Assembly: GCF_029227855.1 (NCBI RefSeq)
Contig: NZ_CP074356.1
From: Escherichia coli
GTDB taxonomy: Bacteria; Pseudomonadota; Gammaproteobacteria; Enterobacterales; Enterobacteriaceae
Strand: one strand, 5' to 3'
Length of the DNA stretch: 64,000 bases
Positions 25,561 to 48,277 of this stretch are shown piece by piece. Under the pieces are notes generated by a model. It was given only the letters and a program-made list of their open reading frames with translations. It was not told where the DNA came from and ran no database searches. The number at the start of each line of letters is the position of its first letter. Position 1 is the first letter of the stretch. Both the position numbers and the translations under genes were made by a program.

Positions 25561-26998
25561 GCCATTTCAGCGCCCGTTTTCGCTGGCAACCCGCCTGACC
25601 TTTTTTATCAGCCTGGCCACCATCGCGGCGTTTTTCGCCTTTGCCTGGATCATGATTCACTCGGTAAAAGTGCATTTTGCTGAGCAGGATATTAATGATT
25701 TAAAAGAGATTAGCGCCACACTCAAGCGCGTTCTTAATCATCCCGAAGAGACACAAGCCCGACGCTTAATGACGCTGGAAGATATCGTCAGTGGTTATTC
25801 CAATGTGTTGATTTCCCTGGCAGATAGCCAGGGTAAAACGGTGTATCACTCCCCCGGTGCGCCGGATATCCGCGAGTTTACGCGTGACGCCATACCCGAT
25901 AAAGACACGCGGGGCGGCGAGGTGTATCTCCTTTCCGGCCCGACGATTATGATGCCGGGCCACGGTCACGGGCATATGGAACACAGCAACTGGCGGATGA
26001 TTAACTTGCCGGTTGGCCCGTTGGTGGACGGCAAACCGATTTATACGCTCTACATCGCGCTTTCGATCGATTTTCATCTTCATTACATAAATGATTTGAT
26101 GAATAAACTTATTATGACCGCATCGATCATCAGCATCCTGATCGTCTTTATCGTGCTGTTGGCGGTACATAAAGGTCACGCACCGATCCGCAGCGTCAGC
26201 CGTCAAATCCAGAACATTACCTCGAAAGATCTCGACGTTCGCCTTGACCCGCAGACCGTGCCGATTGAGCTGGAACAGCTGGTACTGTCGTTCAACCATA
26301 TGATCGAGCGTATTGAGGATGTCTTTACTCGCCAGTCCAATTTCTCAGCGGATATCGCTCACGAAATTCGTACACCAATTACGAATCTCATCACGCAAAC
26401 GGAAATCGCCCTCAGCCAGTCGCGCAGCCAGAAGGAGCTGGAAGATGTGCTCTACTCTAATCTCGAAGAGCTGACGCGAATGGCGAAAATGGTCAGCGAT
26501 ATGCTGTTTCTCGCCCAGGCCGATAACAACCAGTTAATCCCCGAAAAGAAAATGCTCAACCTGGCGGATGAAGTCGGCAAAGTGTTCGATTTTTTCGAGG
26601 CATTAGCGGAAGATCGCGGCGTGGAGTTGCGGTTTGTTGGTGACGAGTGTCAGGTTGCGGGCGATCCGCTGATGCTGCGTCGGGCGTTAAGCAACCTGCT
26701 TTCGAACGCCCTGCGTTATACGCCGCCCGGAGAGGCAATTGTTGTGCGCTGCCAGACGGTCGATCACCAGGTGCAAGTTACCGTCGAAAACCCCGGTACG
26801 CCCATTGCGCCCGAGCACTTACCGCGATTGTTTGACCGTTTCTATCGCGTTGACCCTTCCCGCCAGCGAAAAGGTGAAGGTAGCGGTATTGGGCTGGCGA
26901 TAGTGAAATCGATTGTTGTCGCGCATAAAGGCACGGTTGCGGTAACGTCAGATGCGCGGGGGACAAGGTTTGTGATTATGCTGCCGGAGAGAGAGTGA
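25550..26998 (+). CDS. cusS: Copper-sensing histidine kinase CusS
   Basis: Product [23 protein letters not shown]... with H-box [13 protein letters not shown]; overlaps the cusR stop by 11 bp. Confidence 0.94.
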
Positions 26999-27734
26999 TT
27001 ATTAAGTTCAAATTCAGGGCGTGGTGCATCACCTCCTGGTATTGTTGATCAACAAATTAGAGAAAAACTTATTAAACATATGAAATATCGAAGGCTTTTA
27101 TTTTTCAAAGTTTCACGAGATGTTTGTATATGAAACTTAGTTAAATCTGTGTTTCTTCCAATTGTAGATCACAATGCCCTTTCTAAATTTTCATCGTTAT
27201 AAACAAGCCATCTATCATATAAAGCAATGAATAATTTAATCGCGATTAATCATCATTAATTGTTATATTATTCACTCAATCTATTTATCAAGTGAATTTG
27301 ATAAATTCCTAATTTAAAATATCCACTATTGAGCCAGTATTTAACAACGTTAAGATGTGCAATGTGCAGATCATGTTATCAGGGTGGAGCGGTAGCATAT
27401 ATTTCTTATGCAATCATTCATTTTAATAATGTTAATTGGATTATTTATTGCTGTGAATAAAAATATATTATGAATATTGGTTTAACTTTGCGTTTTTGTT
27501 ACTCGTTGTGATATGCGTACCTGTCCTGAATAACGCCAAGAAACAAGAGGTTGAGCTTGTGATTATTTTTTTGACTGAACAGACACCCGTTTCTGTAAAG
27601 TAATATTTAAACAAAATTCTCACATAACCATAGCATTTTCTGTTCCTTCCCTAATAACGTCTGAAGTCGTCCCGCTTATCACATTATCCGCAGTTGTACG
27701 GTACGGATCATTATTCATTTTACTGGAGGTTGCT

Positions 27735-29636
27735 ATGTCAACCGGATTACGTTTCACACTGGAAGTGGACGGCCTGCCGCCGGATGCTTTTGCGGTGGTT
27801 TCCTTTCATCTGAACCAGTCACTCTCTTCGCTCTTTTCCCTCGATCTCTCCCTGGTCAGCCAGCAGTTTCTCTCCCTTGAATTTGCGCAGGTGCTGGACA
27901 AAATGGCCTACCTGACGATATGGCAGGGCGATGAAGTACAGCGCCGGGTGAAAGGCGTGGTGACCTGGTTTGAACTCGGGGAGAACGACAAAAACCAGAT
28001 GCTGTACAGCATGAAGGTGCACCCGCCGCTGTGGCGTGCCGGTCTGCGCCAGAACTTCCGTATCTTCCAGAACGAGGACATCAAAAGCATCCTCGGCACG
28101 ATGTTGCAGGAAAACGGGGTGACCGAATGGAGTCCGCTGTTCAGCGAGCCGCATCCTTCCCGTGAGTTTTGTGTCCAGTACGGTGAGACTGATTACGATT
28201 TCCTGTGCCGGATGGCGGCGGAGGAAGGCATCTTCTTTTATGAGGAGCATGCTTACAAAAGTACCGACCAGAGCCTGGTGCTGTGCGACACAGTCCGCCA
28301 TCTGCCCGAATCTTTTGAAATCCCATGGAACCCGAACACCCGTACCGAGGTGAGCACCCTCTGCATCAGCCAGTTCCGCTACAGCGCACAAATCCGCCCT
28401 TCTTCCGTGGTGACCAAAGACTACACCTTTAAACGCCCCGGCTGGGCCGGACGTTTTGAACAGGAAGGCCAGCACCAGGACTACCAGCGCACGCAGTATG
28501 AAGTGTATGACTACCCCGGACGTTTCAAGGGTGCCCACGGGCAGAACTTTGCCCGCTGGCAGATGGACGGCTGGCGAAACAATGCAGAAACCGCGCGGGG
28601 AATGAGTCGCTCGCCGGAGATATGGCCGGGACGACGAATTGTGCTGACGGGGCATCCGCAGGCGAACCTGAACCGGGAATGGCAGGTGGTGGCAAGTGAA
28701 CTGCACGGCGAACAGCCACAGGCGGTGCCAGGACGGCAGGGAGCGGGGACGGCGCTGGAGAACCATTTTGCGGTGATCCCGGCAGACAGAACATGGCGAC
28801 CACAGCCGTTGCTGAAACCGCTGGTCGACGGCCCGCAGAGCGCTGTCGTGACAGGACCGGCAGGCGAGGAAATCTTCTGCGACGAACATGGTCGCGTGCG
28901 GGTGAAGTTCAACTGGGACCGCTATAACCCGTCAAACCAGGACAGTTCGTGCTGGATCCGTGTGGCACAGGCGTGGGCAGGCACCGGTTTTGGCCACCTG
29001 GCGATACCGCGTGTGGGTCAGGAGGTGATTGTAGACTTCCTCAACGGCGATCCGGACCAGCCGATCATTATGGGGCGCACCTACCACCAGGAAAACCGCA
29101 CCCCCGGCAGCCTGCCGGGAACAAAGACGCAGATGACCATCCGCTCCAAAACGTACATGGGCAGCGGATTTAATGAGCTGAAGTTTGATGATGCGACAGG
29201 GAGAGAACAGGTCTACATCCACGCGCAGAAGAACATGGATACCGAAGTGCTCAACGACCGTACCACCACCGTAAAACACGATCACCACGAAACCGTAAAA
29301 AATGACCAGACGGTCACGATCCAGGAAGGTAACCGCCTTCTTACGGTGGAAAAAGGCCACAAGATCACCGGAGTACTGAAAGGGTCTTTATCTGAGGATG
29401 TCTTTCAGGACAGAGGCACGATTGCCGGTTCGGTGCATGTTGACGCTGTAAACAATGGTGGCGAAGGCGACGGTATACAGGCTTATACGGCGATTAAGGA
29501 AATTTTGCTGGCCGTGGAGGAAAGCAAAATTGCGCTGACGCCGGATGGCATTCAGCTACAGGTCGGGGAATCGACGGTAATCAGGCTGTCGAAGGATGGC
29601 ATCACCATCGTGGGCGGTTCTGTTTTCATCAACTGA
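27735..29636 (+). CDS. vgrG: Type VI secretion spike protein VgrG (Rhs-element Vgr protein)
   Basis: 633-aa ORF MSTGLRFTLEVDGLPPDAFAVVSFHLNQSLSSLFSLDLSL...; gp27/gp5-like organisation, immediately upstream of Eag/PAAR-Rhs genes. Confidence 0.88.
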   Translation: MSTGLRFTLEVDGLPPDAFAVVSFHLNQSLSSLFSLDLSLVSQQFLSLEFAQVLDKMAYLTIWQGDEVQRRVKGVVTWFELGENDKNQMLYSMKVHPPLWRAGLRQNFRIFQNEDIKSILGTMLQENGVTEWSPLFSEPHPSREFCVQYGETDYDFLCRMAAEEGIFFYEEHAYKSTDQSLVLCDTVRHLPESFEIPWNPNTRTEVSTLCISQFRYSAQIRPSSVVTKDYTFKRPGWAGRFEQEGQHQDYQRTQYEVYDYPGRFKGAHGQNFARWQMDGWRNNAETARGMSRSPEIWPGRRIVLTGHPQANLNREWQVVASELHGEQPQAVPGRQGAGTALENHFAVIPADRTWRPQPLLKPLVDGPQSAVVTGPAGEEIFCDEHGRVRVKFNWDRYNPSNQDSSCWIRVAQAWAGTGFGHLAIPRVGQEVIVDFLNGDPDQPIIMGRTYHQENRTPGSLPGTKTQMTIRSKTYMGSGFNELKFDDATGREQVYIHAQKNMDTEVLNDRTTTVKHDHHETVKNDQTVTIQEGNRLLTVEKGHKITGVLKGSLSEDVFQDRGTIAGSVHVDAVNNGGEGDGIQAYTAIKEILLAVEESKIALTPDGIQLQVGESTVIRLSKDGITIVGGSVFIN

Positions 29637-29663
29637 TTCACTCAGATTATCAGGGAGTATTTT

Positions 29664-30125
29664 ATGCAGTTCACTTTTAATGAAGGCCACATTCAACTGC
29701 CGTCTCAATGGCAGGATCAGTCAATGCAGGTCCTGGTGTCCACAGATAACAGTGGCATCAACCTGGTCATTACCCGCGAAGCCGTTCCACAGGGAACCCT
29801 GACACCAGAGCTGTACCAGGAAACGCTGGCGCTGTACCAGGGCAAACTTGATGGGTACACCGAACATGCCTGCCGGGAAATCACTCTGGCAGAGGCCCCG
29901 GCCTGGCTGCTGGATTATTCCTGGAACGGTCCGGAAGATGAGGGGAATCAGGGGCGGATTAGCCAGATAGCCGTATTCCAGCGGCGTGGAGATACGCTGC
30001 TGACCTTCACTTTCAGCACCTCCTTATCCCTGAAGAACAGTCAAAAGACGATGCTGCTGGAGGTGATAAAGAGCTTCACCCCGTTGCCACCGGAGAATGA
30101 CATCCAAAAGGACCAGCCGCGCTGA
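29664..30125 (+). CDS. DUF1795/Eag-family T6SS effector chaperone (EagR-like)
   Basis: 153-aa ORF placed between vgrG and a prePAAR-Rhs gene, the canonical position of Eag chaperones; assignment from context and overall similarity, no HMM run. Confidence 0.7.
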   Translation: MQFTFNEGHIQLPSQWQDQSMQVLVSTDNSGINLVITREAVPQGTLTPELYQETLALYQGKLDGYTEHACREITLAEAPAWLLDYSWNGPEDEGNQGRISQIAVFQRRGDTLLTFTFSTSLSLKNSQKTMLLEVIKSFTPLPPENDIQKDQPR

Positions 30126-30144
30126 CATAAACGAGGGATAACAC

Positions 30145-33100
30145 ATGAGTGAAGGACCAGGCGGGCCACAGGGAGCGACCGCAGGCGGTACGCTGGCAAT
30201 GCGAATGCTGTCACAGCAGGCGATGGTCGCCAGCCAGATGAAACGGGCAGCCAACGACAAAGCCATTGCACAGATGCTGGCATCAAAAAAGTCCGGCCCC
30301 CCCGCCGCCAGGCTGGGCGATGAAATTCAGCACAAGAGTTTTTTGGGGGCGCTGGCAGGGGCCGTGCTGGGGGCGATAGTGACCATCGCAGAAGGTTGCC
30401 TGATTATGGCCGCCTGTGCCACCGGCCCTTATGCGCTGGTTCTGGTGCCTGCGCTGATGTATGCCAGCTATAAGGCGAGTGATTATGTGGAGGAGAAACA
30501 GAACCAGCTTGAATCATGGATAAACAGCTTTTGTGACACGGACGGCGCCATCAATACCGGTTCTGAAAATGTAAACATTAACGGAAAGCCCGCTGCCAGG
30601 GCCGCCGTCACCCTTCCCCCTCCTCCCCCACCTGGAGCAATACCTGAAATCCCACAGGGGGAACCCTCATGGGGTGATATTGCCACTGACCTGCTTGAAT
30701 CGGCAGCGGAAAAAGCAGTACCACTGGCGAAGGCCTGGGGGAACGCTGTTATCACCCTGACGGACAGCAATGCCGGTTTTATGGATCGCGTCAGCGCCGG
30801 CGCATCGCTTCTGTTTCCCGCCGGTCCGGTATTAATGGAGTTTGCCACCATGGTGGGCGGGCGTGGCGAAATCAAAAAAGATGTGGATTTCCCGGAAGCC
30901 GGTGAGGACACGGCGCTCTGCGACAAGGAGAACAAACCACCGAGGATAGCCCAGGGCAGCAGCAACGTCTTTATCAACAATCAGCCCGCCGCGCGCAAGG
31001 GCGACAAACTGGAGTGCAGCGCGGCAATCGTGGAAGGTTCGCCGGACGTCTTTATTGGCGGTGAACAGGTGACCTATCTGGATATCCAGCCAGAGTTCCC
31101 GCCGTGGCAGAGAATGATCCTGGGGGGAATAACGATAGCCAGCTATCTTCTGCCGCCAGCGGGACTGCTGGGAAAACTGAAGAATCTGGCGAGACTCGGC
31201 AAACTGGGGAACCTGCTGGGGAAAAGCGGGAAGCTGCTGGGGGCAAAGCTCGGCGCGTTGCTGGGAAAAACAGATAAGTCGTTAAAAAGTATTGCCAATA
31301 AAGTCATCAGATGGGTAACAGATCCTGTCGATCCGGTAACCGGCGCGTACTGCGACGAACGTACCGACTTTACGCTGGGCCAGACCCTCCCCCTCTCCTT
31401 CACCCGTTTCCACAGTTCTGTACTGCCGCTGCATGGCCTGACCGGCGTGGGCTGGAGCGACTCCTGGAGCGAATACGCCTGGGTGCGTGAACAGGGAAAC
31501 CGGGTGGATATCATCAGCCAGGGAGCCACGCTGAACTTCGCCTTCGACGGTGACAGTGATACGGCGGTTAACCCGTATCACGCCCAGTACATTCTGCGCC
31601 GCCGCGATGATTATCTGGAGCTGTTCGACAGGGATGCACTGAGCAGCCGCTTCTTTTATGACGCCTTTCCGGGAATGCGTCTGCGCCACCCGGTGACTGA
31701 CGATACCAGCGATGACCGCCTGGCACACAGCCCCAATGACCGGATGTACATGCTGGGCGGGATGAGCGACACCGCCAGCAACCGCATCACGTTTGAGCGC
31801 GACAGCCAGTACCGGATCACAGGTGTCAGTCACACCGACGGGATCCGGCTTAAACTGACGTACCACGCCAGCGGCTACCTGAAAGCCATTCACCGCACGG
31901 ATAACGGCATACAGACGCTGGCGACCTACGAACAGGATGCGCGGGGGCGGCTGACAGAAGCGGATGCGCGGCTGGACTACCACCTGTTTTATGAGTACGA
32001 CGCTGCGGACCGGATCATCCGCTGGTCCGATAACGACCAGACGTGGAGCCGTTTCACCTACGATGAACAGGGCCGGTGCGTGAATGTCACCGGGGCGGAG
32101 GGCTATTACAACGCCACGCTGGACTATGGTGACGGCTGCACCACCGTGACGGACGGCAAGGGCATTCACCGTTATTACTATGATCCTGACGGCAATATTC
32201 TGCGGGAAGCAGCGCCGGACGGCAGCACCACCACGTATGAATGGGATGAATTCCATCACCTGCTGGCCCGTCACTCCCCTGCCGGGCGGGTGGAGAAATT
32301 TGAATACAACGCCGCACACGGTCAGTTAAGCCGTTACACGGCGGCAGACGGCGCGGAGTGGCAGTACCGCTATGATGAGCGCGGCCTGCTCAGCAACATC
32401 ACCGACCCTGCCGGGCAGACGTGGACACAGCAGTGTGATGAACGCGGCCTGCCGGTAAGTCTGGTGTCGCCACAGGGCGAAGAGACCCGGCTGGCATACA
32501 CCGCTCAGGGGCTGCTGTCGGGAATATTCCGCCAGGATGAACGGCGTCTGGGCATAGAGTACGACCACCACAACCGGCCGGAAACACTCACCGACGTGAT
32601 GGGCCGTGAACACCACACCGAATACAGCGGTCACGACCTGCCGGTGAAGATGCGCGGCCCCGGCGGTCAGTCAGTGCGGTTGCAGTGGCAGCAGCACCAT
32701 AAACTGAGTGGCCTTGAGCGCACTGGCACCGGCGCGGAAGGGTTCAGCTATGACCGCCACGGCAACCTGCTGGCCTGGACGGACGGCAATGGTGTTGTCT
32801 GGACAATGGAGTACGGCCCGTTCGATTTGCCGGTGGCGCGAACGGACGGTGAAGGCCACCGCTGGCAGTACCGCTATGATAAAGACACGCTGCAACTGAC
32901 AGAAGTCATTAACCCGCAGGGTGAGTCATATCTTTATGTTCTGGATAACTGCGGCCGGGTGACGGAAGAGCATGACTGGGGCGGCGTGGTCTGGCGTTAC
33001 CGCTATGACGCCGATGGCCTGTGTACCGCCAGGGTCAACGGCCTGGAGGAAACCATCCTCTACAGCCGGGACGACGCAGGCCGCCTGGCAGAAGTCATCA

Positions 33101-34974
33101 CGCCGGAAGGCAAAACGCAGTATGCGTATGACAAATCCGGCAGGCTGACGGGTATCTTCAGCCCGGACGGCACATCACAGCGCACCGGCTATGACGAACG
33201 CGGGCGGGTGAATGTCACCACTCAGGGCCGACGGGCCATTGAATACCACTACCCCGATGAACACACCGTCATCCGCTGTATCCTGCCACCGGAAGATGAA
33301 CGCGACAGACACCCCGGTGAATCCCTGCTGAAAACCACGTACCGCTACAACGCAGCCGGAGAACTGGCAGAGGTCATCCTGCCGGAGGATGAGACGCTGA
33401 CGTTCAGCCGTGATGAGGCAGGACGTGAAGTGCTCCGGCACAGTAACCGGGGTTTTGCCTGTGAGCAGGGCTGGAATGCAGCCGGTCAGCTTACCAGCCA
33501 GCGCGCCGGACTTTTCCCGGCAGAAGCCACATGGGGCGGGCTGCTCCCCTCACTGGTACGGGAGTACCGTTACGACAGCGCGGGCAATGTGTCGGCTGTC
33601 ACCAGCCGGGAAGATTACGGACGGGAAACTCGCCGGGAGTACCGGCTGGACCGGAACGGCCAGGTCACGGCGGTGACAGCCTCAGGCACCGGGCTGGGCT
33701 ATGGCGAAGGCGATGAGTCCTATGGCTATGACAGTTGTGGCTACCTGAAGGCGCAGTCTGCGGGCAGGCACCGGATAAGTGAAGAGACTGAGCGGTATGC
33801 CGGAGGCCACCGGCTGAAACAGGCCGGAAACACGCAGTATGACTATGACGCCGCAGGCCGGATGGTCAGCCGCACCAGACACCGTAACGGCTATCGCCCG
33901 GAAACAGAGCGGTTCCGGTGGGACAGCCGGGACCAGCTGACCGGGTATTGCAGCGCACAGGGTGAACAGTGGGAATACCGCCACGACGCCAGCGGCAGAC
34001 GGACGGAAAAACGCTGCGACCGGAAGAAAATCCGCTTCACGTACCTGTGGGACGGCGACAGTATTGCGGAAATCCGGGAATACCGCGATGATAAACTGTA
34101 CAGCGTAAGGCACCTGGTGTTTAACGGCTTTGAGCTGATAAGCCAGCAGTTTAGCCGGGTACGGCAGCCGCACCCGTCCGTGGCCCCGCAGTGGGTGACG
34201 CGGACGAATCATGCGGTGAGCGATCTGACGGGCCGTCCGCTGATGCTCTTTAACAGTGAAGGTAAAACCGTCTGGCGACCGGGACAGACCAGCCTGTGGG
34301 GGCTGGCACTCAGCCTGCCCGCGGACACCGGCTACCCGGACCCGCGCGGGGAACTGGACGCGGAAGCCGACCCCGGCCTGCTGTATGCAGGACAGTGGCA
34401 GGATGCGGAATCCGGGCTGTGCTATAACCGGTTCCGGTATTACGAGCCGGAAACAGGGATGTACCTGGTGAGTGATCCGCTGGGGTTGCTGGGGGGTGAG
34501 CAGACTTACCGGTATGTGCCGAATCCGTGTGGGTATGTTGATCCTTTGGGATTAGCAACATGTCCCATAATCAGACAACGGGTGCTGGCTAACCTTGAAG
34601 CCAGTCGGGCAGCAAGGGCTGCATCTAATTTTGGTAAGAAAAATATCTATGATTTTATCAAGGCAACTCAATCTGCTATCCCTGGCACCTCTATCCCAAA
34701 ATCTTTTGAGATTATAACTGCTAATGGTACTTTCTGGGTACACCCAAATGCTACAAAACATATGGCTGAATATTTGACTCGGAACGGTCTCTCACATTCA
34801 ACTTCTGTAGAGAGCCAAATAATGTTAACAAGTTTTCACGAAGCTGTAAGTTTGGCTAGTGCTCAAGGTATAAAGTATGAAGAAATGATGAATGTTGGCG
34901 GCTGGGAACTAGTATTTAGTCAAGCTAAATCTGACTCGGCTTTATCAGTTATTAAACATGCTCTTTATAAATGA
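30145..34974 (+). CDS. prePAAR/PAAR-domain Rhs polymorphic toxin (T6SS effector) with variable C-terminal toxin domain
   Basis: 1609 aa; prePAAR motif AARLGDEIQH near the N-terminus with hydrophobic helices; PAAR-like segment (GDKLECSAAIVEGSPDVFIGGE); many YD/RHS repeats; PxxxxDPxGL core-end motif (NPCGYVDPLGL) followed by about 150 aa of divergent C-terminus. Confidence 0.9.
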   Translation: MSEGPGGPQGATAGGTLAMRMLSQQAMVASQMKRAANDKAIAQMLASKKSGPPAARLGDEIQHKSFLGALAGAVLGAIVTIAEGCLIMAACATGPYALVLVPALMYASYKASDYVEEKQNQLESWINSFCDTDGAINTGSENVNINGKPAARAAVTLPPPPPPGAIPEIPQGEPSWGDIATDLLESAAEKAVPLAKAWGNAVITLTDSNAGFMDRVSAGASLLFPAGPVLMEFATMVGGRGEIKKDVDFPEAGEDTALCDKENKPPRIAQGSSNVFINNQPAARKGDKLECSAAIVEGSPDVFIGGEQVTYLDIQPEFPPWQRMILGGITIASYLLPPAGLLGKLKNLARLGKLGNLLGKSGKLLGAKLGALLGKTDKSLKSIANKVIRWVTDPVDPVTGAYCDERTDFTLGQTLPLSFTRFHSSVLPLHGLTGVGWSDSWSEYAWVREQGNRVDIISQGATLNFAFDGDSDTAVNPYHAQYILRRRDDYLELFDRDALSSRFFYDAFPGMRLRHPVTDDTSDDRLAHSPNDRMYMLGGMSDTASNRITFERDSQYRITGVSHTDGIRLKLTYHASGYLKAIHRTDNGIQTLATYEQDARGRLTEADARLDYHLFYEYDAADRIIRWSDNDQTWSRFTYDEQGRCVNVTGAEGYYNATLDYGDGCTTVTDGKGIHRYYYDPDGNILREAAPDGSTTTYEWDEFHHLLARHSPAGRVEKFEYNAAHGQLSRYTAADGAEWQYRYDERGLLSNITDPAGQTWTQQCDERGLPVSLVSPQGEETRLAYTAQGLLSGIFRQDERRLGIEYDHHNRPETLTDVMGREHHTEYSGHDLPVKMRGPGGQSVRLQWQQHHKLSGLERTGTGAEGFSYDRHGNLLAWTDGNGVVWTMEYGPFDLPVARTDGEGHRWQYRYDKDTLQLTEVINPQGESYLYVLDNCGRVTEEHDWGGVVWRYRYDADGLCTARVNGLEETILYSRDDAGRLAEVITPEGKTQYAYDKSGRLTGIFSPDGTSQRTGYDERGRVNVTTQGRRAIEYHYPDEHTVIRCILPPEDERDRHPGESLLKTTYRYNAAGELAEVILPEDETLTFSRDEAGREVLRHSNRGFACEQGWNAAGQLTSQRAGLFPAEATWGGLLPSLVREYRYDSAGNVSAVTSREDYGRETRREYRLDRNGQVTAVTASGTGLGYGEGDESYGYDSCGYLKAQSAGRHRISEETERYAGGHRLKQAGNTQYDYDAAGRMVSRTRHRNGYRPETERFRWDSRDQLTGYCSAQGEQWEYRHDASGRRTEKRCDRKKIRFTYLWDGDSIAEIREYRDDKLYSVRHLVFNGFELISQQFSRVRQPHPSVAPQWVTRTNHAVSDLTGRPLMLFNSEGKTVWRPGQTSLWGLALSLPADTGYPDPRGELDAEADPGLLYAGQWQDAESGLCYNRFRYYEPETGMYLVSDPLGLLGGEQTYRYVPNPCGYVDPLGLATCPIIRQRVLANLEASRAARAASNFGKKNIYDFIKATQSAIPGTSIPKSFEIITANGTFWVHPNATKHMAEYLTRNGLSHSTSVESQIMLTSFHEAVSLASAQGIKYEEMMNVGGWELVFSQAKSDSALSVIKHALYK

Positions 34975-35504
34975 CGATTATGCTTACATTAGAAAATGAA
35001 ACAAACTACAAAGATGTTGTTGTTAATATAGATGAATTTGTACCTTTTGATATAACTTTTGGAAAGGGGAGCGAACAGTGTTTGTACTGGAGAGGCGGCA
35101 ATGGTAAAAGTTCTTTGGTTGAAGTTGGGTTAAATATGTACAGCGGAGAAGTAAGTAACATCACACTAGCAAATATCGATTCAGGTGAAATTAACATTAC
35201 AGATGAGATGTTAGCCAACAACCTTCCTGAAATACAAGGGTCTGTTATATTTCAGACAAGCGAGTGGCTTAATAAAGACATTTCCGAATACTCAAACAGA
35301 TTTATTGATGATTTTGATTGCAATATCAAGTTAATAATTGGTAGTAATTACATTAAATTATTATTTAAAAAAGCAACAAATCCCATTTGTTATATCATTA
35401 ATAGGAATATAAGATTTGGTTTTTCTTTGAGTAGGGAACTTTCGACATTGGAAATATTAGACCTCAATCAAGAAAAATTAGATATTCTAAAGTTATTTAA
35501 ATAG
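34971..35504 (+). CDS. Putative cognate immunity protein for the Rhs C-terminal toxin
   Basis: 177-aa ORF whose ATG overlaps the rhs stop (ATGA); markedly AT-rich; position typical of rhsI genes. Confidence 0.7.
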   Translation: MTIMLTLENETNYKDVVVNIDEFVPFDITFGKGSEQCLYWRGGNGKSSLVEVGLNMYSGEVSNITLANIDSGEINITDEMLANNLPEIQGSVIFQTSEWLNKDISEYSNRFIDDFDCNIKLIIGSNYIKLLFKKATNPICYIINRNIRFGFSLSRELSTLEILDLNQEKLDILKLFK

Positions 35505-35983
35505 TTTTAGTGTTTGAAACTTACCGAGAGATGATAGCTATGAATGAATACAAAAACATCCATCTTGGAGGAAACAATGGAATGTTAATCCATTAAAAAA
35601 CATACTTCAATATCTTTAGTGAAGAAAGAGTTGTATGAAAGAAATATATCTTATGTGAGCGACATGATGCATGCTAATTATATTATTGGCCGGAAATTTT
35701 ATGATGATAGCAAAAAGGAGGGGTTATTTCTGTAAGAATGGATATACCCGCAGGGTTTGAACCAGACATTTATTTGTTGAAGTCTAAGATCCAAATGGAA
35801 GCATTTATATCCCTCAGATATTATGCGTTGACGGGTTGATAAAGATACTTTTAGAGGGTTAATAAATGGAGAACGTATAATAAATCTCTTAAACAAACTA
35901 TAACCTGTACTAATGAAAAAAATGGGAATAGATAAGTTAATAGCCTATTCTAAAAATGGTAAAGTGGTTTTACTTCCAAAATA

Positions 35984-36427
35984 ATGGAGTTTAGTATGAA
36001 AATCGAAGCTAATTCCCTTACTCATCCCTATGACTACAACGCCTCACTGAACAATTATTTACATTATTTTGAGAATTTCTCTCGTAATGACTGGAATAAA
36101 GATTCATGTGGAGGATATTTTACTTTTAGAGATGATGACAGAGAGTGTGTTTTGTTTTTTGTGAATTATGGTGATAATTTTTCATTGCGCTATGATTGTA
36201 CACAAAGTTCTGATGGAATAGTGTCATGCTGGTATAGTAACCATGAAGATGATAAAATGAATATCATCGTCGATGCTGATACAGAACAATTTATCCCTTT
36301 AGGTTCTTGCTTACCTCCTGATATTACTTTATCAGTAATAAAAGATTTTTTCAAAAATCCTTTAGAGAAATCAAAAAAAGTAAAATGGATGAATGCAGAT
36401 GACATTGACTGGTCATCTGTGTATTAA
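35984..36427 (+). CDS. Hypothetical protein, possible orphan immunity gene
   Basis: 147-aa ORF in AT-rich DNA downstream of the toxin/immunity pair; no recognisable motif. Confidence 0.4.
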   Translation: MEFSMKIEANSLTHPYDYNASLNNYLHYFENFSRNDWNKDSCGGYFTFRDDDRECVLFFVNYGDNFSLRYDCTQSSDGIVSCWYSNHEDDKMNIIVDADTEQFIPLGSCLPPDITLSVIKDFFKNPLEKSKKVKWMNADDIDWSSVY

Positions 36428-37318
36428 AGTTGGATTGGATAATTATCTGTTTCAAAAATCATTAAATTTAGAACCTATCTGTTCAACAGAGCTGCCTTGA
36501 ACAGCAGGTTCTTTTATGATGTCCAGGAGCGAATATGCCTGTGATGTCTGGCACTCAGCATCTGACTGACCTGGACTACTGATCCTACTCACACAGGGAG
36601 CTAGACCTGGAAGCAACCTACTGTAAGCAGTGCAGTAGCAGCCCACCTCACATCAGTCCTTGCAAGGTGTGGGCCTTTGTGATCTTGCTCTGTATTGCTG
36701 AGATCCTCAGGAAGGACTCGAAATTTAATCAGGAAGGCCGTTGCTAAAAATCAAAAAATAAATTCAAGAGCAATTTCTAAAACTTTTGAATCTACTGTAT
36801 CGGATGAGGTTTTCACTCCTTTCCAAAAGGTGAGTTTTCAAGCATTCAAGTTTCTGTTATGACCAAAACTTCACCATTTAACACTAATCCGAGTATTATG
36901 TTACCATGAAGAAAAAAGATATTAGATTTGCAATATCCATTAACTCCAACTCAAGTAAGATAGAATTAATGGAAAAATTAAAAACATAATCCCAGGGCTT
37001 ATTGAAATAACTCCCAGTGCATTAAGAGAAGAAAAAACATGGTAGTTATTGAAGATAATGATCTTTATGACTCTATAAAAGCAGAGGGAGTTGATGGATG
37101 GATGTATTATAAATTCATATTATCCATATTCCCATTAAAGGGAGTAGACACAACATTAGAATATCAACGGAAATTATCTTTTCTTTTCTTAAAGAAATTA
37201 AAAGATGCGGGTCTGTTAGGTGAACTTATATGCGAGGATGATTTTCATGACTGATGACCTCTACATATATCCTCAGTTCGTGGCTGGTATTACATGATCT
37301 GACAGGGAAAGATCGTAG

Positions 37319-37613
37319 CGAAATCAAAAAAGACGTGGATTTCCCGGAAGCCGGTGAAGACACGGCGCTCTGCGACAAGGAGACTAAACCGCCGAGGATA
37401 GCCCAGGGCAGCAGCAACGTTTTTATCAACAATCAGCCTGCCGCACGCCAGGGAGACAAACTGGAGTGCAGTGCGGCGATCGTGGAAGGTTCGCCGGACG
37501 TCTTTATTGGGGGTGAGCAGGTCACCTATCTGGATATCCAGCCGGAGTTCCCGCCGTGGCAGAGAATGATCCTGGGGGGAATAACGATAGCCAGCTATCT
37601 TCTGCCGCCAGCG
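37319..37613 (+). pseudogene. Duplicated fragment of the Rhs PAAR-domain region
   Basis: 295 bp nearly identical to 30867-31161 of the full-length rhs gene; encodes EIKKDVDFPEAGEDTALCDK...ITIASYLLPPA inside ORF 37254..37631; lacks the N-terminus and core. Confidence 0.85.
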
Positions 37614-37750
37614 CAGGGAAAGATCACGTAACGCTGCTTTTTTGTACTAAATAATTCGCACTAAATGTTCAATAATTGAGATATTCCTTATTACCTAAAT
37701 ACAGTTCCACCAAGATTACCTAAACCCAAATGAGGTAAAAGATAGTGGGT

Positions 37751-38112
37751 ATGAATAAAAATGAAATCCATTTCCCTATAGGATATGGTTGGTTGAATGA
37801 AAAAAAATTATTGGCACCAGTGAATTTAGCCAATTAGAACCATGGTTTTATCTAGATGAGAACAGGTGTTTTTTTGCGAATAAAAAATGGCCAAATGTCA
37901 TAGGTGAACAATTATTCGCTTTTGCTAAACGTCAAGATAATGATGAATTGGCTTGTTTCAAAATTAATGAATCTGGAGTCTGTGAGGGTGTTTATTTAAT
38001 TAATGGGTGGACTCCTAACGGGTTTGATATTATACAATTTTACCCTGATTTTTGGGAATGGGTACATTTGGTTATACAAGATGTCTCGGAGTGGATTGAT
38101 AATAAAGGATAA
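37751..38112 (+). pseudogene. Frameshifted small gene (immunity-protein-like) with an A8 tract at the frame switch
   Basis: ATG at 37751 reads 27 codons to a stop; a shifted frame from about 37813 continues for 99 codons to TAA at 38110-38112; the shift coincides with gaaaaaaaatt at 37798-37808. Confidence 0.45.
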
Positions 38113-38141
38113 TTTGAAACAAAAGTAAAAAACCGCCTTCA

Positions 38142-38840
38142 TTGAAGGTAACGTGGAGTGGTGGGCGGAGCAGCCTGCCCGCAGACACAGACTACCCGGA
38201 CCCGCGCGGGGAGCGGGACGCGGAAGCCGACCCCGGCCTGCTGTATGCAGGACAGTGGCAGGATGCGGAATCCGGACTGTGCTATAACCGGTTCCGGTAT
38301 TACGAGCCGGAAACCGGGATGTACCTGGTGAGTGATCCCCTGGGGTTGCTGGGGGGTGAGCAGACTTACCGGTATGTGCCTAATCCTAGTGGGTATGTTG
38401 ATCCTCTGGGATTAGCAACGTGTCCTATACTCAGACAGTGGGCGCTGACTAACCTTGAAGCCAGTCGGGCAGCAAGGGCTGCATCTAATTTTGGTAAGCC
38501 TCTGGTCCAGCGAAATAAAACGATTGGCGATAAAGTAAGGGATATGATTGCCAAAGAGAGGGGAACCACTCTAATTGAACAAAATTATAGAGTGACAGGA
38601 GGATTAAAGCGTATTGACGTTGTTGATGGAGTAACGGGTATAGAATCTAAAGTCGATCGAACAGGGTTAACAACCCGAGTACGGCAAGAGGTAGCGCGGG
38701 ATATTAAGATTTTGAGAAGTGAGCAACTTGATCAAATTGAATGGGTGTTTACAAGAAGTTCAACTACAGGGAAGATTGGGCCAACTAAACCACTTGAAGA
38801 TCTTTTAAATAAACATGGTATACCGATTATTTATCGATAA
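38142..38840 (+). CDS. Orphan Rhs C-terminal fragment: core end (DPxGL) plus alternative C-terminal toxin domain, candidate PD-(D/E)xK nuclease
   Basis: 38171-38498 nearly identical to 34311-34638 of the full rhs; the C-terminal domain diverges after ...AASNFGK; contains RIDVVDG...GIESK; the ORF begins at TTG and has no PAAR or core of its own. Confidence 0.7.
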   Translation: MKVTWSGGRSSLPADTDYPDPRGERDAEADPGLLYAGQWQDAESGLCYNRFRYYEPETGMYLVSDPLGLLGGEQTYRYVPNPSGYVDPLGLATCPILRQWALTNLEASRAARAASNFGKPLVQRNKTIGDKVRDMIAKERGTTLIEQNYRVTGGLKRIDVVDGVTGIESKVDRTGLTTRVRQEVARDIKILRSEQLDQIEWVFTRSSTTGKIGPTKPLEDLLNKHGIPIIYR

Positions 38841-38851
38841 GGAGTGATAGT

Positions 38852-39409
38852 GTGAAACTCAAACCGATTGGTGACTTTTTAAACAAAAATGGGTTTATAA
38901 AAAATGGTAACAATGATTTTTATAAAGTTCATGATAAGTTTGTAAATTGTATAAATTTTCAAAAAAAGAGTACAGGTGATATTTTTTTTATAAACACAGG
39001 TGTTCATCCTGTGTTCGAAAATTTTTGCAATGAACCACCGAAAAAAGAAATAGATTGTTACATCCGTAACCGTGTGTGTGATGGACTAAGTATATCTTTG
39101 CTGCATTCTTTTGAAGGTAGTGAGTTTGTTATCAGTGAGATAAAAAACAAAGCGTTTTGTTTTTTTGAATACTTTGATTCATTGAATAAAATATTCGATG
39201 CTATTCGTGTTGTAGATATTGAAGAGAGAAATATTTGCGATGAGCTAAGTGGTGTAAGCAGCGTAAGATTAGCTTTGATGTGTATGAACTACCAGTATGA
39301 GAAAAAAAAATTTAGCCTTGTTTCTGATTTTGCGAACTATGGTCTTGCTATATCTAGAGGCCCGGTACCGAAAAAAGCATTTAAGGATATGATAAAAATA
39401 ACAGAGTGA
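38852..39409 (+). CDS. Putative immunity protein for the orphan Rhs C-terminal toxin
   Basis: 185-aa AT-rich ORF with GTG start 11 bp after the orphan toxin stop and GGAG upstream. Confidence 0.6.
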   Translation: MKLKPIGDFLNKNGFIKNGNNDFYKVHDKFVNCINFQKKSTGDIFFINTGVHPVFENFCNEPPKKEIDCYIRNRVCDGLSISLLHSFEGSEFVISEIKNKAFCFFEYFDSLNKIFDAIRVVDIEERNICDELSGVSSVRLALMCMNYQYEKKKFSLVSDFANYGLAISRGPVPKKAFKDMIKITE

Positions 39410-39434
39410 TACCTAATCCGGTGTAATACTTGCT

Positions 39435-39646
39435 GCCTGTGTACCGCGAAGATTAACGGCCGGGAGGAAACTATTCTCTACAACCGGGACGCCACAGGCC
39501 GCCTGGCAGAAGTCATCACGCCGGAAGGCAAAACGCAGTATGCGTATGACAAATCCGGCAGGCTGACGGGTATCTTCAGCCCGGACGACACATCACAGCG
39601 CACCGGCTATGAAGAACGCGGGCGGGTGAATGTCACCACTCAGGGC
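39435..39646 (+). pseudogene. Internal Rhs core fragment
   Basis: About 210 bp at roughly 90% identity to 33018-33228 of the full-length rhs; truncated at both ends, abutting the ISAs1 left end. Confidence 0.8.
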
Positions 39647-40936
39647 AGGGAAAGATCATCCAAAGTACACTTTTTGTACTAAATAATTCGCATTTTATGT
39701 TTAAAAATGGAGATATTCCTCATTACCTAAAGCTGTTTTTTATTGCTTATACATGATCAAATACTCCTTACATAATTAAGGAGAACAAAATGGAACTTAA
39801 AAAATTGATGGAACATATTTCTATTATCCCCGATTACAGACAAGCCTGGAAAGTGGAACATAAATTATCGGATATTCTGCTGTTGACTATTTGTGCCGTT
39901 ATTTCGGGTGCAGAAGGCTGGGAAGATATAGAGGATTTTGGGGAAACACATCTCGATTTTTTGAAGCAATATGGTGATTTTGATAATGGTATTCCTGTTC
40001 ACGATACCATCGCCAGAGTTATATCCTGTATCAGTCCTTCAAAATTTCACGAGTGTTTTATTAACTGGATGCGAGATTGCCATACTTCAGATGATAAAGA
40101 CGTCATCGCAATTGATGGAAAAACACTCCGGCATTCTTATGACAAGAGTCGCCGCAAGGGAGCGATTCATGTCATTAGTGCGTTCTCAACAATGCACAGT
40201 CTGGTCATCGGACAGATCAGGACGGATGAGAAATCCAATGAAATTACAGCTATCCCTGAACTTCTTAACATGCTGGATATTAAAGGAAAAATCATCACAA
40301 CTGATGCGATGGGTTGCCAGAAAGATATTGCAGAGAAGATACAAAAACAGGGCGGTGATTATTTATTCGCTGTAAAAGGAAACCAGGGGCGGCTAAATAA
40401 AGCCTTCGAGGAAAAATTTCCGCTGAAAGAATTAAATAATCCAGAGCATGACAGTTACGCCATTAGTGAAAAGAGTCACGGCAGAGAAGAAATCCGTCTT
40501 CATATTGTTTGCGATGTCCCTGATGAACTTATTGATTTCACGTTTGAATGGAAAGGACTGAAGAAATTATGCGTGGCAGTCTCTTTTCGGTCAATAATAG
40601 CAGAACAAAAGAAAGAGCCAGAAATGACGGTCAGATATTATATCAGTTCTGCTGATTTAACCGCAGAGAAGTTCGCCACAGCAATCCGAAACCACTGGCG
40701 CGTGGAGAATAAGCTGCACTGGCGTCTGGACGTGGTAATGAATGAAGACGACTGCAAAATAAGAAGAGGAAACGCCGCAGAATTATTTTCAGGGATACGG
40801 CACATCGCTATTAATATTTTAACGAATGATAAGGTATTCAAGGCAGGGTTAAGACGTAAGATGCGAAAAGCAGCCATGGACAGAAACTATCTCGCGTCAG
40901 TCCTTGCGGGGAGCGGGCTTTCGTAATCTTGCCCTG
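39646..40936 (+). mobile_element. ISAs1-family insertion sequence (H-repeat element), about 1.29 kb
   Basis: Imperfect terminal inverted repeats CAGGGAAAGATCA (39646-39658) and TAATCTTGCCCTG (40924-40936); single transposase ORF; inserted in rhs-derived sequence. Confidence 0.75.
39790..40926 (+). CDS. ISAs1-family transposase (H-repeat-associated protein, YhhI/YdcC-like)
   Basis: 378-aa [55 protein letters not shown]...; the stop codon lies inside the right inverted repeat. Confidence 0.88.
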
Positions 40937-41123
40937 CGTTAACCGCCCCTCCTTGACACCACGCTTTTGTCTACATTCTACACAAACGGCAACTTTTATA
41001 ACCAGTGTAAAAATAACGTGCCGCAATAGTCATACCTATTAATGGTAAAAAGCTGTCACAATTCATAAAAAACCTTAATATACGCCACCCTAAACATAAC
41101 CAGCGTTAATGTAAGGTTTTTGT

Positions 41124-48200: not shown

Positions 48201-48277
48201 TGGCGCGCCCTGCAGGATTCGAACCTGCGGCCCACGACTTAGAAGGTCGTTGCTCTATCCAACTGAGCTAAGGGCGC
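48201..48277 (-). tRNA. argU: tRNA-Arg (anticodon UCU), argU
   Basis: Reverse complement reads GCGCCCTTAGCTCAGTTGGATAGAGCAACGACCTTCTAAGTCGTGGGCCGCAGGTTCGAATCCTGCAGGGCGCGCCA; cloverleaf with TCT anticodon and CCA end. Confidence 0.95.

What the first reader, a model, noticed from the sequence alone, without database searches (positions are those of the whole stretch)
26999..27734. 736-bp AT-rich non-coding leader upstream of vgrG
The sequence between the cusS stop and the vgrG start is strongly AT-rich, contains A/T tracts and has no ORF of 60 aa or more. It is the presumed left junction of the island and a likely H-NS-silenced promoter region controlling the effector operon.
Basis: inference. 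Interest (0 to 1): 0.35.

Follow-up and report, generated by a model that had tools for sequence, protein, structure and literature searches.

The report
RfaH-type leader before orphan vgrG operon
The AT-rich gap between cusS and vgrG is the true left edge of a known E. coli type VI secretion effector island, and it carries a small conserved element that probably recruits the anti-termination factor RfaH so the long operon can be transcribed once H-NS silencing is lifted.

Summary
Window 26999-27734 is 736 bp, 31.5% G+C against 51% for the window, and its longest ORF is 51 aa.

K-12 has only 149 bp between cusS and nfrB. Its homology stops at about 26977-26991, inside the last cusS codons, and resumes at 40983. 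The whole leader is therefore island DNA. There are no flanking direct repeats.

The leader has two parts:
- 26999-27245 occurs only next to cusS.
- About 27246-27734 is a paralogous module, about 80% identical to the K-12 yncH-rhsE spacer.

Inside the module is a 58-nt core (27344-27401) that recurs upstream of many different orphan T6SS/Rhs modules. Its 3' end, AGCGGTAGCATA (27388-27399), is an ops-type RfaH recruitment site. A conserved -10-like hexamer lies about 30 nt upstream of it.

In UPEC CFT073 the homologous core upstream of c1882 binds RfaH, but only in a strain lacking hns and stpA, and it is H-NS-bound in wild type. The K-12 paralogue is also reported to bind H-NS and RNA polymerase.

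The best reading is an H-NS-silenced, probably RfaH-dependent promoter and leader. It is a new member of a known kind. Function in this allele is inferred, not shown.

The parts
26977..26998 (+). Last codons and stop of cusS, supplied by the island-linked haplotype. This is the left junction zone.
   Evidence: K-12 aligns at 95.7% up to 26976. After that, 5 of 15 nt differ while the protein stays similar (VI.LP), then homology ends. The C-terminus is VIMLPERE* here and VITLPA* in K-12.
26999..27245 (.). Spacer next to cusS that is specific to this locus. It is AT-rich (G+C 0.30).
   Evidence: It is single-copy and always adjacent to cusS, in 2,845 of 5,426 genomes. O157 strains lack about 27020-27183. 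Strain D5 has an IS1 inserted at 27207-27215 with a 9-bp duplication. No ORF of 30 aa or more, no terminator and no Rfam match was found.
27246..27343 (+). Very AT-rich (G+C 0.24) upstream block shared with other orphan T6SS leaders. It includes the box AAGTGAATTTGATAAATTCC and a 9/10 match to the H-NS motif TCGATAAATT at 27298-27307.
   Evidence: Conserved between leader types A, B and C. The motif match is and is not significant window-wide (9 matches found, 5.4 expected). The motif itself comes from PMC2094087.
27329..27356 (+). Candidate sigma70 promoter P0: -35-like TTGAGC (27329-27334), a 16-nt spacer, and -10-like TAAGAT (27351-27356). The putative start is near G27364.
   Evidence: All 15 sequences tabulated (about a dozen sequence families) carry a hexamer 6-8 nt upstream of GTGCAGAT, although the intervening bases vary. 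It reads TAAGAT, TATGAT, TAAAAT, TAGAAT or TAACAT, and in one case TATACA, which lacks the final T. The -35 matches are weak. This is inference; no start-site data could be obtained.
27344..27401 (+). Conserved core cassette: the -10-like box, then GTGCAGAT (27364-27371), then TATCAGGG (27377-27384), then the ops-like element.
   Evidence: It is the only significant profile hit in the window (nhmmer E=7e-14). It was found in the same orientation in 4,737 of 5,426 E. coli genomes, in E. whittamii, Escherichia sp. E1V33 and Superficieibacter electus, and in at least 5 non-E. coli metagenomic families. It lies upstream of the first gene of vgrG, PAAR-vgr, toxin/immunity or Rhs-tip modules.
27388..27399 (+). 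ops-like element AGCGGTAGCATA. The core CGGTAG is at 27390-27395 and the pause base T11 is at 27398.
   Evidence: It matches the ops consensus GGCGGTAGCGTG at 9 of 12 positions, with positions 3-8 and T11 intact (consensus and position requirements from PMC5995543 and bioRxiv 10.1101/2025.02.08.637259). It matches the RfaH-bound kps ops GGCGGTAGCATA of CFT073 at 11 of 12 positions. The homologous core of CFT073 c1882 (GGCGGTAGCGTA) gives an RfaH ChIP signal (PMC9765446 Data set S2).
27400..27734 (+). AT-rich (G+C 0.33) untranslated leader running to the vgrG start. The Shine-Dalgarno GGAGG is at 27725-27729.
   Evidence: It is shared, at 67-86% identity with indels, with type B leaders, while vgrG immediately downstream is about 100% identical. 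Folding energy does not stand out (z=0.07) and there is no covariation. The K-12 predicted promoter TTGACT-17-TATTAC and the K-12 PhoB site are not conserved here.
27735..40982 (+). The co-directional island served by the leader: vgrG (27735-29636), a DcrB/EagR-like gene (29664-30125), rhs (30145-34974), an immunity candidate (34971-35504), orphan tips (35984-39409) and an ISAs1/H-repeat element (transposase ORF 39790-40926).
   Evidence: ORFs are. K-12 homology resumes at 40983.

Best explanation
The interval is the 5' regulatory leader and left boundary of the cusS-nfrB orphan type VI secretion island, made of vgrG, an eagR-like gene, rhs, immunity genes and orphan tips. This island is the EHEC 'vgrG-2 orphan locus' and 'rhsW3' of E. 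coli W.

Proposed mechanism:
1. In wild-type cells the AT-rich DNA (24-33% G+C around the core) is coated by H-NS/StpA, which blocks initiation.
2. When silencing is relieved, RNA polymerase starts at a weak sigma70 promoter in the conserved core (-10-like TAAGAT at 27351-27356, start near 27364).
3. About 25-35 nt later the polymerase meets an ops-type site on the non-template strand (AGCGGTAGCATA, 27388-27399). There it pauses and loads RfaH.
4. RfaH-modified polymerase resists pausing induced by Rho and by H-NS filaments. It can then cross the 335-nt untranslated AT-rich leader and the roughly 13-kb co-directional operon.

What is shown and what is inferred:
- Shown here: the junction, the modular structure of the leader, the conservation and gene context of the core, and the ops match.
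- Shown elsewhere, on homologues only: H-NS binding, sigma70 binding and RfaH binding.
- Inferred: the exact promoter and start site, and that this allele's ops variant (A at position 1) works.
For: Junction:
- K-12 has 149 bp between cusS and nfrB.
- K-12 homology breaks at 26976 and resumes at 40983.

Composition and lack of coding.

Modular leader.

The core is conserved, always in the same orientation, upstream of different first genes:
- vgrG (window, O157, S1-IND)
- the rhsE locus (an Rhs gene that starts with vgrG's first codons in strain 1916D6; the 5'-truncated rhsE pseudogene in K-12)
- a toxin plus immunity pair followed by vgr
- PAAR followed by vgr
- Rhs tips and nuclease/immunity pairs in other genera

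ops identity:
- Positions 3-8 (CGGTAG) and T11 are intact and on the sense strand.
- PMC5995543 shows that positions 3-8 are needed for RfaH recruitment and that T11 is the pause base.

Evidence from homologues:
- CFT073 c1882 carries the same core, with ops at 1715753-1715764, 313 nt upstream of its first gene. It shows RfaH ChIP signal and a sigma70 peak only in the hns stpA double mutant, and H-NS binding in wild type (PMC9765446).
- The CFT073 kps ops GGCGGTAGCATA, bound by RfaH in wild type, differs from the window's site only at position 1.
- EAEC T6SS transcription needs RfaH and ops (bioRxiv 10.1101/2025.02.08.637259).
- The K-12 paralogue spacer is listed as binding RpoD holoenzyme and H-NS (PMC3946193) and as H-NS-bound in vivo (PMC10294691).

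Operon shape: about 13 kb of co-directional genes follows the leader, as in known RfaH operons.
Against: - No experiment addresses this allele.
- Position 1 of ops is A instead of G. G1C lowered the RfaH effect in reporters (PMC5995543), and G1A has not been tested. Positions 10 and 12 also differ from the canonical site.
- A loose ops pattern ([AG]GCGGTAGNNT) occurs three times in the window, two of them inside genes, so the match alone is weak.
- Similarity to the RfaH-bound CFT073 leader is confined to about 55 nt.
- The candidate promoter has weak -35 matches. The generic promoter scan finds no more sites than in shuffled sequence (3 found, 3.9 expected).
- ops would lie unusually close to the start (+25), against +46 in waaQ and +67 to +817 in CFT073 transcription units.
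- The leader outside the core diverges fast (67-86% identity) next to a vgrG that is about 100% identical, so most of it is under little constraint.
Confidence: 0.62

Rival explanations
1. The interval is a plain H-NS-bound, AT-rich junction and promoter region. The ops-like 12-mer is a decayed or chance match that no longer recruits RfaH in this allele, so expression is controlled only at initiation.
For: The window's site has A at ops position 1, and A at positions 10 and 12. Every ops substitution tested except G2C lowers RfaH stimulation (PMC5995543). Two other loose ops-like matches in the window lie inside genes and are surely non-functional. Promoter-like hexamers are no more frequent than in shuffled sequence.
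Against: The 12-mer sits in the best-conserved 58 nt of the leader, and every variant recovered in the searches keeps the CGGTAG core. It lies on the sense strand in an untranslated leader, which is the only context where CFT073 ops sites bind RfaH. The CATA ending is functional in kps. About 2,300 genomes keep this exact variant.
Confidence: 0.25
2. The conserved core is the operator or promoter of an unidentified DNA-binding regulator, or a recombination anchor left at island boundaries. Its resemblance to ops is secondary.
For: GTGCAGAT and TATCAGGG, upstream of ops, are invariant in every variant recovered (the collection scan patterns required part or all of these boxes), yet they are absent from the wza and waaQ JUMPStart sequences, with which the core shares only 17-20 of 39 positions. 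In two metagenomic families the core abuts truncated rhs fragments directly. In types D and E it abuts an ISAs1 end.
Against: Spacing between the boxes varies from 6 to 14 nt, which is awkward for a single dimeric DNA-binding site. There is no second or inverted copy at the right end of the island: profile and mismatch searches found none and a local alignment gave only 66% identity with gaps. There are no direct repeats at the island junctions. RfaH binding to the homologous CFT073 site is experimental.
Confidence: 0.08
3. The core encodes a small product of its own: either a short RNA derived from the 5' leader, like RirA of waaQ, or a micro-ORF (MCRSCYQGGAVAY...).
For: K-12 annotates the sRNA RirA over the waaQ ops leader. 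An ORF is open through the core in several leader types, and the two differences between types A and B (GGA/GGG and GCA/GCG) are synonymous in that frame.
Against: There is no terminator after the core, no Rfam match and no fold-energy signal on any of five cores (z between -0.85 and +0.56). The spacing between boxes changes by amounts that are not multiples of 3. A 4-nt indel shifts the reading frame of the C-terminus between types A and B.
Confidence: 0.05

Closest known systems
Leader of c1882-c1889 in UPEC CFT073, a cryptic RfaH-regulated orphan T6SS PAAR-vgr island at ansP-yncG (Hustmyer et al. 2022, PMC9765446)
   Same: It has the same core cassette: a -10-like hexamer, GTGCAGAT, ATCAGGG and ops. 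The core lies about 310-350 nt upstream of the first gene, on the sense strand, in AT-rich DNA, and heads a co-directional orphan T6SS module. That leader is H-NS-bound and binds RfaH when hns and stpA are deleted.
   Different: It is at a different chromosomal locus with different cargo. Sequence similarity is limited to about 55 nt (83%). The CFT073 ops is GGCGGTAGCGTA and the window's is AGCGGTAGCATA. An ISAs1 left-end remnant follows the core in CFT073 but not here.
K-12 yncH-rhsE intergenic spacer
   Same: It is an approximately 80% paralogue of window 27255-27680, including the core with ops GGCGGTAGCGTA. It is reported to bind H-NS and RpoD holoenzyme (PMC3946193, PMC10294691).
   Different: In K-12 the last 56 nt of the leader, vgrG and the 5' part of rhsE are deleted. 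The predicted K-12 promoter TTGACT-17-TATTAC and the weak PhoB site are not conserved in the window; there is an 11-bp gap in the spacer.
JUMPStart/ops leaders of waaQ, wza (cps), rfb, kps and hly
   Same: An ops element lies on the non-template strand in the 5' untranslated leader of a long, horizontally acquired, H-NS-bound operon. A G-rich run precedes ops.
   Different: The 5' half of JUMPStart (CAGTG..GGTAGCT) is not shared; ungapped identity is 17-20 of 39 positions, mostly from ops itself. The cargo is T6SS effectors, not envelope polysaccharide or hemolysin. The canonical TG at positions 11-12 is TA here, as in kps.
ops1 and ops2 of the EAEC sci1 T6SS cluster (Taillefer et al. 2025 preprint)
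   Same: RfaH/ops control of T6SS genes in E. coli. The minimal motif GGTAGNNT is kept.
   Different: Those sites lie inside the main structural cluster (hcp-clpV and an accessory intergenic region), not at the head of an orphan effector island, and they do not belong to this conserved cassette.

Membership tests
ops element (RfaH recruitment site) | Core bases 3-8 (C G G T A G) of GGCGGTAGCGTG, which are needed for RfaH recruitment | tested here: met
   CGGTAG is at 27390-27395. The requirement comes from PMC5995543.
ops element (RfaH recruitment site) | T at position 11 (the pause base), that is the minimal motif GGTAGNNT | tested here: met
   GGTAGCAT is at 27391-27398. The motif is as quoted in bioRxiv 10.1101/2025.02.08.637259.
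ops element (RfaH recruitment site) | G at positions 1, 10 and 12 of the canonical 12-mer | tested here: not met
   The window has A at all three. A10 and A12 occur in the RfaH-bound kps ops GGCGGTAGCATA. A1 also occurs in a second lineage of this cassette (L059 type), but no A1 site has been shown to bind RfaH.
ops element (RfaH recruitment site) | Located on the non-template strand in an untranslated 5' leader of a long co-directional operon | tested here: met
   The site is on the plus strand, 336 nt upstream of the vgrG ATG, with no ORF over it that is conserved. About 13 kb of plus-strand genes follow.
ops element (RfaH recruitment site) | RfaH binding and rfaH-dependent distal gene expression | not testable with these tools
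   The only evidence is by homology: the same cassette in CFT073 gives RfaH ChIP signal in the hns stpA double mutant (PMC9765446).
JUMPStart 39-bp element | A conserved 5' half (CAGTG...GGTAGCT...) upstream of ops | tested here: not met
   Ungapped identity to K-12 wza and waaQ JUMPStart is 17-20 of 39 positions, nearly all within ops and the G-run. The cassette has its own 5' half, GTGCAGAT..TATCAGGG.
H-NS-silenced regulatory region of a horizontally acquired island | AT-rich relative to the genome and absent from the island-free reference at this locus | tested here: met
   G+C is 0.315 against 0.51. The sequence is absent from K-12 between cusS and nfrB.
H-NS-silenced regulatory region of a horizontally acquired island | H-NS occupancy and derepression in hns mutants | not testable with these tools
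   Evidence comes from paralogues and homologues only (PMC3946193, PMC10294691, PMC9765446). A single 9/10 match to the H-NS motif at 27298-27307 is not significant.
sigma70 promoter | -35 and -10 hexamers with 16-18 nt spacing and a mapped transcription start | tested here: inconclusive
   A conserved -10-like hexamer lies 6-8 nt before GTGCAGAT in all 15 sequences tabulated, but the -35 matches are weak (2-4 of 6). The generic scan is not enriched. Start-site tables could not be reached.
Orphan vgrG-Rhs T6SS auxiliary island (EHEC vgrG-2 locus Z0700-Z0707; E. coli W rhsW3) | vgrG, a DUF1795/DcrB-like chaperone gene, rhs and immunity genes located between cusS and nfrB | tested here: met
   ORFs, Pfam matches and RefSeq names agree. 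Literature: PMC12981562, PMC5363993, PMC7216683 and PMC3032704.

The most novel reading that the evidence does not exclude
The 58-nt core is a portable 'promoter plus ops' expression cassette that travels with orphan T6SS effector, Rhs and toxin-immunity modules. It is seen at several chromosomal loci in Escherichia and in other Enterobacterales. If so, RfaH, together with H-NS/StpA, would be the common elongation-level switch for a cell's whole arsenal of orphan T6SS effectors. That would include the cryptic rhsE remnant of K-12 and the island in this window. The A1 ops variant, fixed in about 2,300 genomes, could be a tuned or attenuated form.
Probability: 0.45. Interest if true: 0.55.

Novelty: new member of a known kind. 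Interest (0 to 1): 0.4.

Why it matters
Orphan vgrG-rhs islands supply much of the strain-to-strain variation in E. coli contact-dependent weaponry, but how they are switched on is largely unknown. If this leader is an H-NS-silenced, RfaH-dependent unit, three things follow:
- It would explain why these islands are silent in laboratory culture.
- It would link their expression to the same regulator that controls LPS, capsule, hemolysin and the main T6SS cluster.
- It would provide a simple sequence marker (GTGCAGAT-N-TATCAGGG-N4-GCGGTAGC) for finding the heads of such operons in genomes and metagenomes.

It also gives a concrete test in tractable strains. E. coli W carries the identical leader, and the B-strain derivative C41(DE3) keeps the whole leader plus a 270-bp vgrG stub.

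For annotation, the result shows that the island junction lies inside the last cusS codons, which changes the CusS C-terminus.

Tried and rejected
- Rfam at a permissive threshold gave only chance-level hits; the best was RAGATH-6 at 24 bits against a gathering score of 170.
- Structured-RNA readings were not supported. Five cores folded with z between -0.85 and +0.56. The putative 399-nt 5' UTR gave z=0.07. RNAalifold on four leaders found 0 compensatory pairs.
- RNAalifold's predicted pairing between the core and the vgrG start region was no better than shuffled or other windows; 40% of shuffles did as well.
- A micro-ORF through the core was rejected because box spacing varies by amounts that are not multiples of 3 and a 4-nt indel shifts the frame.
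- A search for target-site duplications or inverted repeats at the island ends found no direct repeat of 7 nt or more. The weak inverted similarity of the right flank to the core (66% with gaps) is not shared by ISAs1 flanks elsewhere.
- Comparisons by eye with sigma54, dif/Xer, IHF, RcsAB, CsrA and Fur motifs gave no convincing match. These are not tool results.
- The promoter published for the K-12 paralogue (TTGACT-17-TATTAC, PMC3946193) and its PhoB site (PMC10294691) are not conserved in the window.
- Transcription-start tables could not be used. The Cappable-seq GTF is truncated before 1.5 Mb, the SMRT-Cappable-seq supplements have no entry, and the dRNA-seq paper of Thomason et al. is not held.
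- The H-NS motif count is not significant across the window.
- Plasmid hits were mislabelled chromosomes.

Full report
OBSERVATION

The interval is as described. The cusS ORF ends at 26998 and the vgrG ATG is at 27735. G+C is 0.315 against 0.51 for the window. Only 1.1% of 736-nt windows are as low, and most of the others lie in the AT-rich Rhs-tip/immunity part of the same island. The longest internal ORF is 51 aa. RefSeq annotates nothing in identical copies. Full-length copies at 99% identity or more occur in about 2,300 of 5,426 complete E. coli genomes, including E. coli W. In the E. coli B derivative C41(DE3) the whole leader survives with only the first 270 bp of vgrG.

JUNCTION

K-12 MG1655 has 149 bp between cusS and nfrB. 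K-12 aligns with the window up to 26976 at 95.7% identity and again from 40983 at 100%. Between 26977 and 26991 the two sequences still encode similar residues (VI.LP), but 5 of 15 nt differ. After that there is no homology. CusS ends VIMLPERE* here, VITLPA* in K-12 and FMIKLPEKG* in a third haplotype.

The island therefore spans about 26977/26992 to 40982, and the whole leader belongs to it. No direct repeat of 7 nt or more flanks it. Near its right end lies an ISAs1/H-repeat element (transposase ORF 39790-40926), followed by 46 nt of unique sequence.

The island itself is known:
- 'rhsW3' in region b0570-b0569 of E. coli W (PMC3032704)
- the 'vgrG-2 orphan locus' Z0700-Z0707 of EHEC EDL933 (PMC12981562, PMC5363993, PMC7216683)

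MODULAR ANATOMY

Window 26999-27245 is single-copy and always next to cusS. O157 strains lack about 27020-27183. Strain D5 carries an IS1 at 27207-27215.

From about 27246 to 27734 the leader is a paralogous module. It is about 80% identical to the yncH-rhsE spacer of K-12, where vgrG has been deleted. It is also related to the leader of the same locus in strain 1916D6.

A strain with a 'type B' leader at the cusS locus (S1-IND-02-A) is only 67-86% identical to the window across the leader, yet about 100% identical from the first base of vgrG onward. The leader alleles are therefore old and have been shuffled by recombination. Most of the leader is weakly constrained.

THE CONSERVED CORE

One block stands out, at 27344-27401. 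It is the only significant profile hit in the window (nhmmer E=7e-14). Together with about 60 nt of flanking sequence it gives a match in 4,737 of 5,426 E. coli genomes. It is always on the same strand as the downstream genes, and in the E. coli leader types measured it lies 285-397 nt upstream of the first gene. Across E. coli and other genera those genes are:
- vgrG (types A and B)
- a small toxin-like ORF plus an immunity-like lipoprotein, followed by vgr, a DcrB-like gene and rhs (type C)
- PAAR, vgr and DUF4123 or M35 (types D and E)
- at the cusS locus of other E. coli, orphan toxin/immunity genes with no vgrG at all

An exact-pattern scan of one genome per species found the core in E. 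whittamii, Escherichia sp. E1V33 and Superficieibacter electus.

A degenerate pattern in metagenomes gave 120 loci. These include at least five families from organisms other than E. coli, lying upstream of Rhs C-terminal fragments with barstar or SUKH immunity genes, or upstream of an AHH nuclease with Imm43.

Aligned, the families share four elements:
- a hexamer (TAAGAT, TATGAT, TAAAAT, TAGAAT or TAACAT; TATACA in one family)
- 6-8 variable nt, then GTGCAGAT
- 6-14 variable nt, then (T)ATCAGGG
- 4 nt, then GCGGTAGC(R)T

WHAT THE CORE IS

The 3' box is an ops element. The consensus is GGCGGTAGCGTG, and GGTAGNNT is its most conserved part (bioRxiv 10.1101/2025.02.08.637259). Positions 3-8 are required for RfaH recruitment and T11 is the pause base (PMC5995543).

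Type B, D and several other families carry GGCGGTAGCGTA, -CGTG or -CATG. The window carries AGCGGTAGCATA at 27388-27399 on the sense strand. Positions 3-8 and T11 are intact, and positions 1, 10 and 12 differ.

Hustmyer et al. (PMC9765446) mapped RfaH in UPEC CFT073. Among eight RfaH-bound loci, all with ops in an untranslated leader and all H-NS/StpA-bound, is c1882-c1889, whose ops GGCGGTAGCGTA lies at 1715753-1715764, 313 nt upstream of c1882. RfaH signal and a sigma70 peak appear there only in the hns stpA double mutant, and H-NS covers the region in wild type.

I fetched that region. It is the ansP-yncG PAAR-vgr orphan island, and its leader contains the same core cassette, here called type D.

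The kps ops of CFT073, bound by RfaH in wild type, is GGCGGTAGCATA. That is one base (position 1) away from the window's site.

The 5' half of the classical JUMPStart sequence of wza and waaQ is not shared (17-20 of 39 positions). The cassette is therefore an ops leader of its own type rather than a JUMPStart copy.

H-NS AND THE PROMOTER

There is no direct evidence for this allele. For the K-12 paralogue:
- Genomic SELEX lists an RpoD-holoenzyme 'constitutive promoter' and H-NS in the yncH>rhsE spacer (PMC3946193).
- Position 1527862, upstream of rhsE, is flagged as H-NS-bound in vivo (PMC10294691).

The promoter predicted there (TTGACT-17-TATTAC) is disrupted in the window by an 11-bp gap, and the weak PhoB box is not conserved.

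The conserved -10-like hexamer sits 6-8 nt before GTGCAGAT. With TTGAGC 16 nt upstream in the window, it is my candidate promoter, which would put ops at about +25. The -35 matches are weak. The generic promoter scan is not enriched over shuffles. I could not obtain transcription-start data. A 9/10 match to the H-NS motif TCGATAAATT at 27298-27307 lies in a conserved box but is not statistically meaningful.

MECHANISM PROPOSED

H-NS/StpA silences initiation on the AT-rich leader. After derepression, RNA polymerase starts in the core, pauses at ops and loads RfaH. The modified polymerase then transcribes through the 335-nt untranslated leader and the roughly 13-kb co-directional vgrG-eagR-rhs-immunity-orphan array without Rho- or H-NS-induced termination.
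- Shown here: the junction, the modularity, the conservation and context of the core, and the ops match.
- Shown on homologues in the literature: binding of H-NS, sigma70 and RfaH.
- Inferred: the promoter position and the activity of the A1 ops variant.

RIVALS

- The ops-like site is inactive here and control is by initiation only. This is plausible because of A1 (G1C is deleterious in reporters) and because loose ops matches also occur by chance, two of them within genes in this window.
- The core is an operator or recombination anchor. This is weakened by the variable box spacing and by the absence of a second copy or of repeats.
- The core makes a RirA-like sRNA or a micro-ORF. There is no terminator, no structure and no frame conservation.

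VERDICT

It missed the ops/RfaH element, the paralogy with the rhsE leader and the fact that the junction lies inside cusS.

The feature is a new member of a known kind, an H-NS-silenced, ops-bearing leader of a horizontally acquired operon. The recurrence of one compact cassette in front of many different orphan T6SS/Rhs modules is, as far as the papers I could search show, not described as such. It is the part worth following up.

Noticed in passing
window 26977-26998: The last 5-7 codons of cusS differ between island-positive and island-free haplotypes ([17 protein letters not shown] and VIVLPERE* against VITLPA* in K-12). The island junction therefore alters the CusS C-terminus.
   Followed up: partly
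window 39646-40936, with the right junction at 40983: An ISAs1/H-repeat element (transposase ORF 39790-40926) lies near the right end of the island, followed by 46 nt of unique sequence before K-12 homology resumes. The same IS left-end sequence (CAGGGAAAGAT...AAGGAGAACAAAATGGAAC) lies 9 nt after the ops core in type D and E leaders (L014, L015, CFT073 L137) and about 150 nt after it in E. whittamii (L012).
   Followed up: partly
window 27735 onward, compared with L007 from 9744 onward: There is a sharp identity step exactly at the vgrG start codon: 67-86% in the leader against about 100% in vgrG between the window and strain S1-IND-02-A. This points to recombination or gene conversion that homogenises the coding part but not the leader.
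   Followed up: partly
L113 1625-2300 (also L024 and L122): Other E. coli (cusS 96% identical) carry at the same cusS junction a quite different island. It has an 80-nt spacer, a divergent ops core (GGCGGTAGCGTA), then an orphan Tox-GHH2 fragment, immunity-like genes and ISAs1, with no vgrG.
   Followed up: partly
L090 3546-3600 and L134 3368-3410: In two metagenomic contigs from organisms other than E. coli, the ops core (GGCGGTAGCATG, the same 12-mer as the hlyC ops) is fused within about 25 nt to a 5'-truncated rhs fragment. In L134 it lies between successive Rhs-tip/immunity modules. Orphan tips may each carry their own ops cassette.
   Followed up: partly
L016 7001-7725 (E. coli C41(DE3); the same in BL21 derivatives): B strains keep the complete 736-bp leader plus the first 270 bp of vgrG, followed by DLP12-type prophage remnants. 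This is a ready-made natural reporter context for the leader in a laboratory strain.
   Followed up: no
L141 (strain D5), equivalent to window 27207-27215: An IS1 is inserted in the part of the leader next to cusS, with a 9-bp target duplication (GCCATCTAT). It lies about 140 nt upstream of the promoter/ops core. A second strain (600029) has a similar two-piece match.
   Followed up: partly
window 20675 (-) and 13136 (-): Two other loose ops-like matches (GGCGGTAGTCT inside cusA and GGCGGTAGCCT) lie within coding regions. Sites in that context did not bind RfaH in CFT073, so these are probably chance matches.
   Followed up: no
window 48201-48277: tRNA-Arg(TCT) (argU) lies between envY and fimZ with no DLP12 prophage, ompT or appY. 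The prophage attachment site is empty in this strain.
   Followed up: partly
window 35984-39409: There is a low-G+C (below 0.36) array of orphan ORFs downstream of rhs and its immunity gene. It includes a PAAR-motif protein (37254-37631) and a DUF4304 protein (38852-39409). These are probably displaced Rhs tips and immunity genes.
   Followed up: partly
L005 9477-14192 (strain 1916D6): The intact 'RHS element core protein' at the rhsE locus begins with the same first codons as vgrG (ATGTCAACCGGATTACGTTTCACACTGGAA). This suggests an in-frame vgrG-rhs fusion left by deletion.
   Followed up: no
L140 1167-1239 (K-12 waaQ leader): The annotated sRNA RirA covers the waaQ ops element. Its 5' end lies about 45 nt upstream of ops and a U-run follows ops. 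No comparable terminator follows ops in the window's leader.
   Followed up: partly
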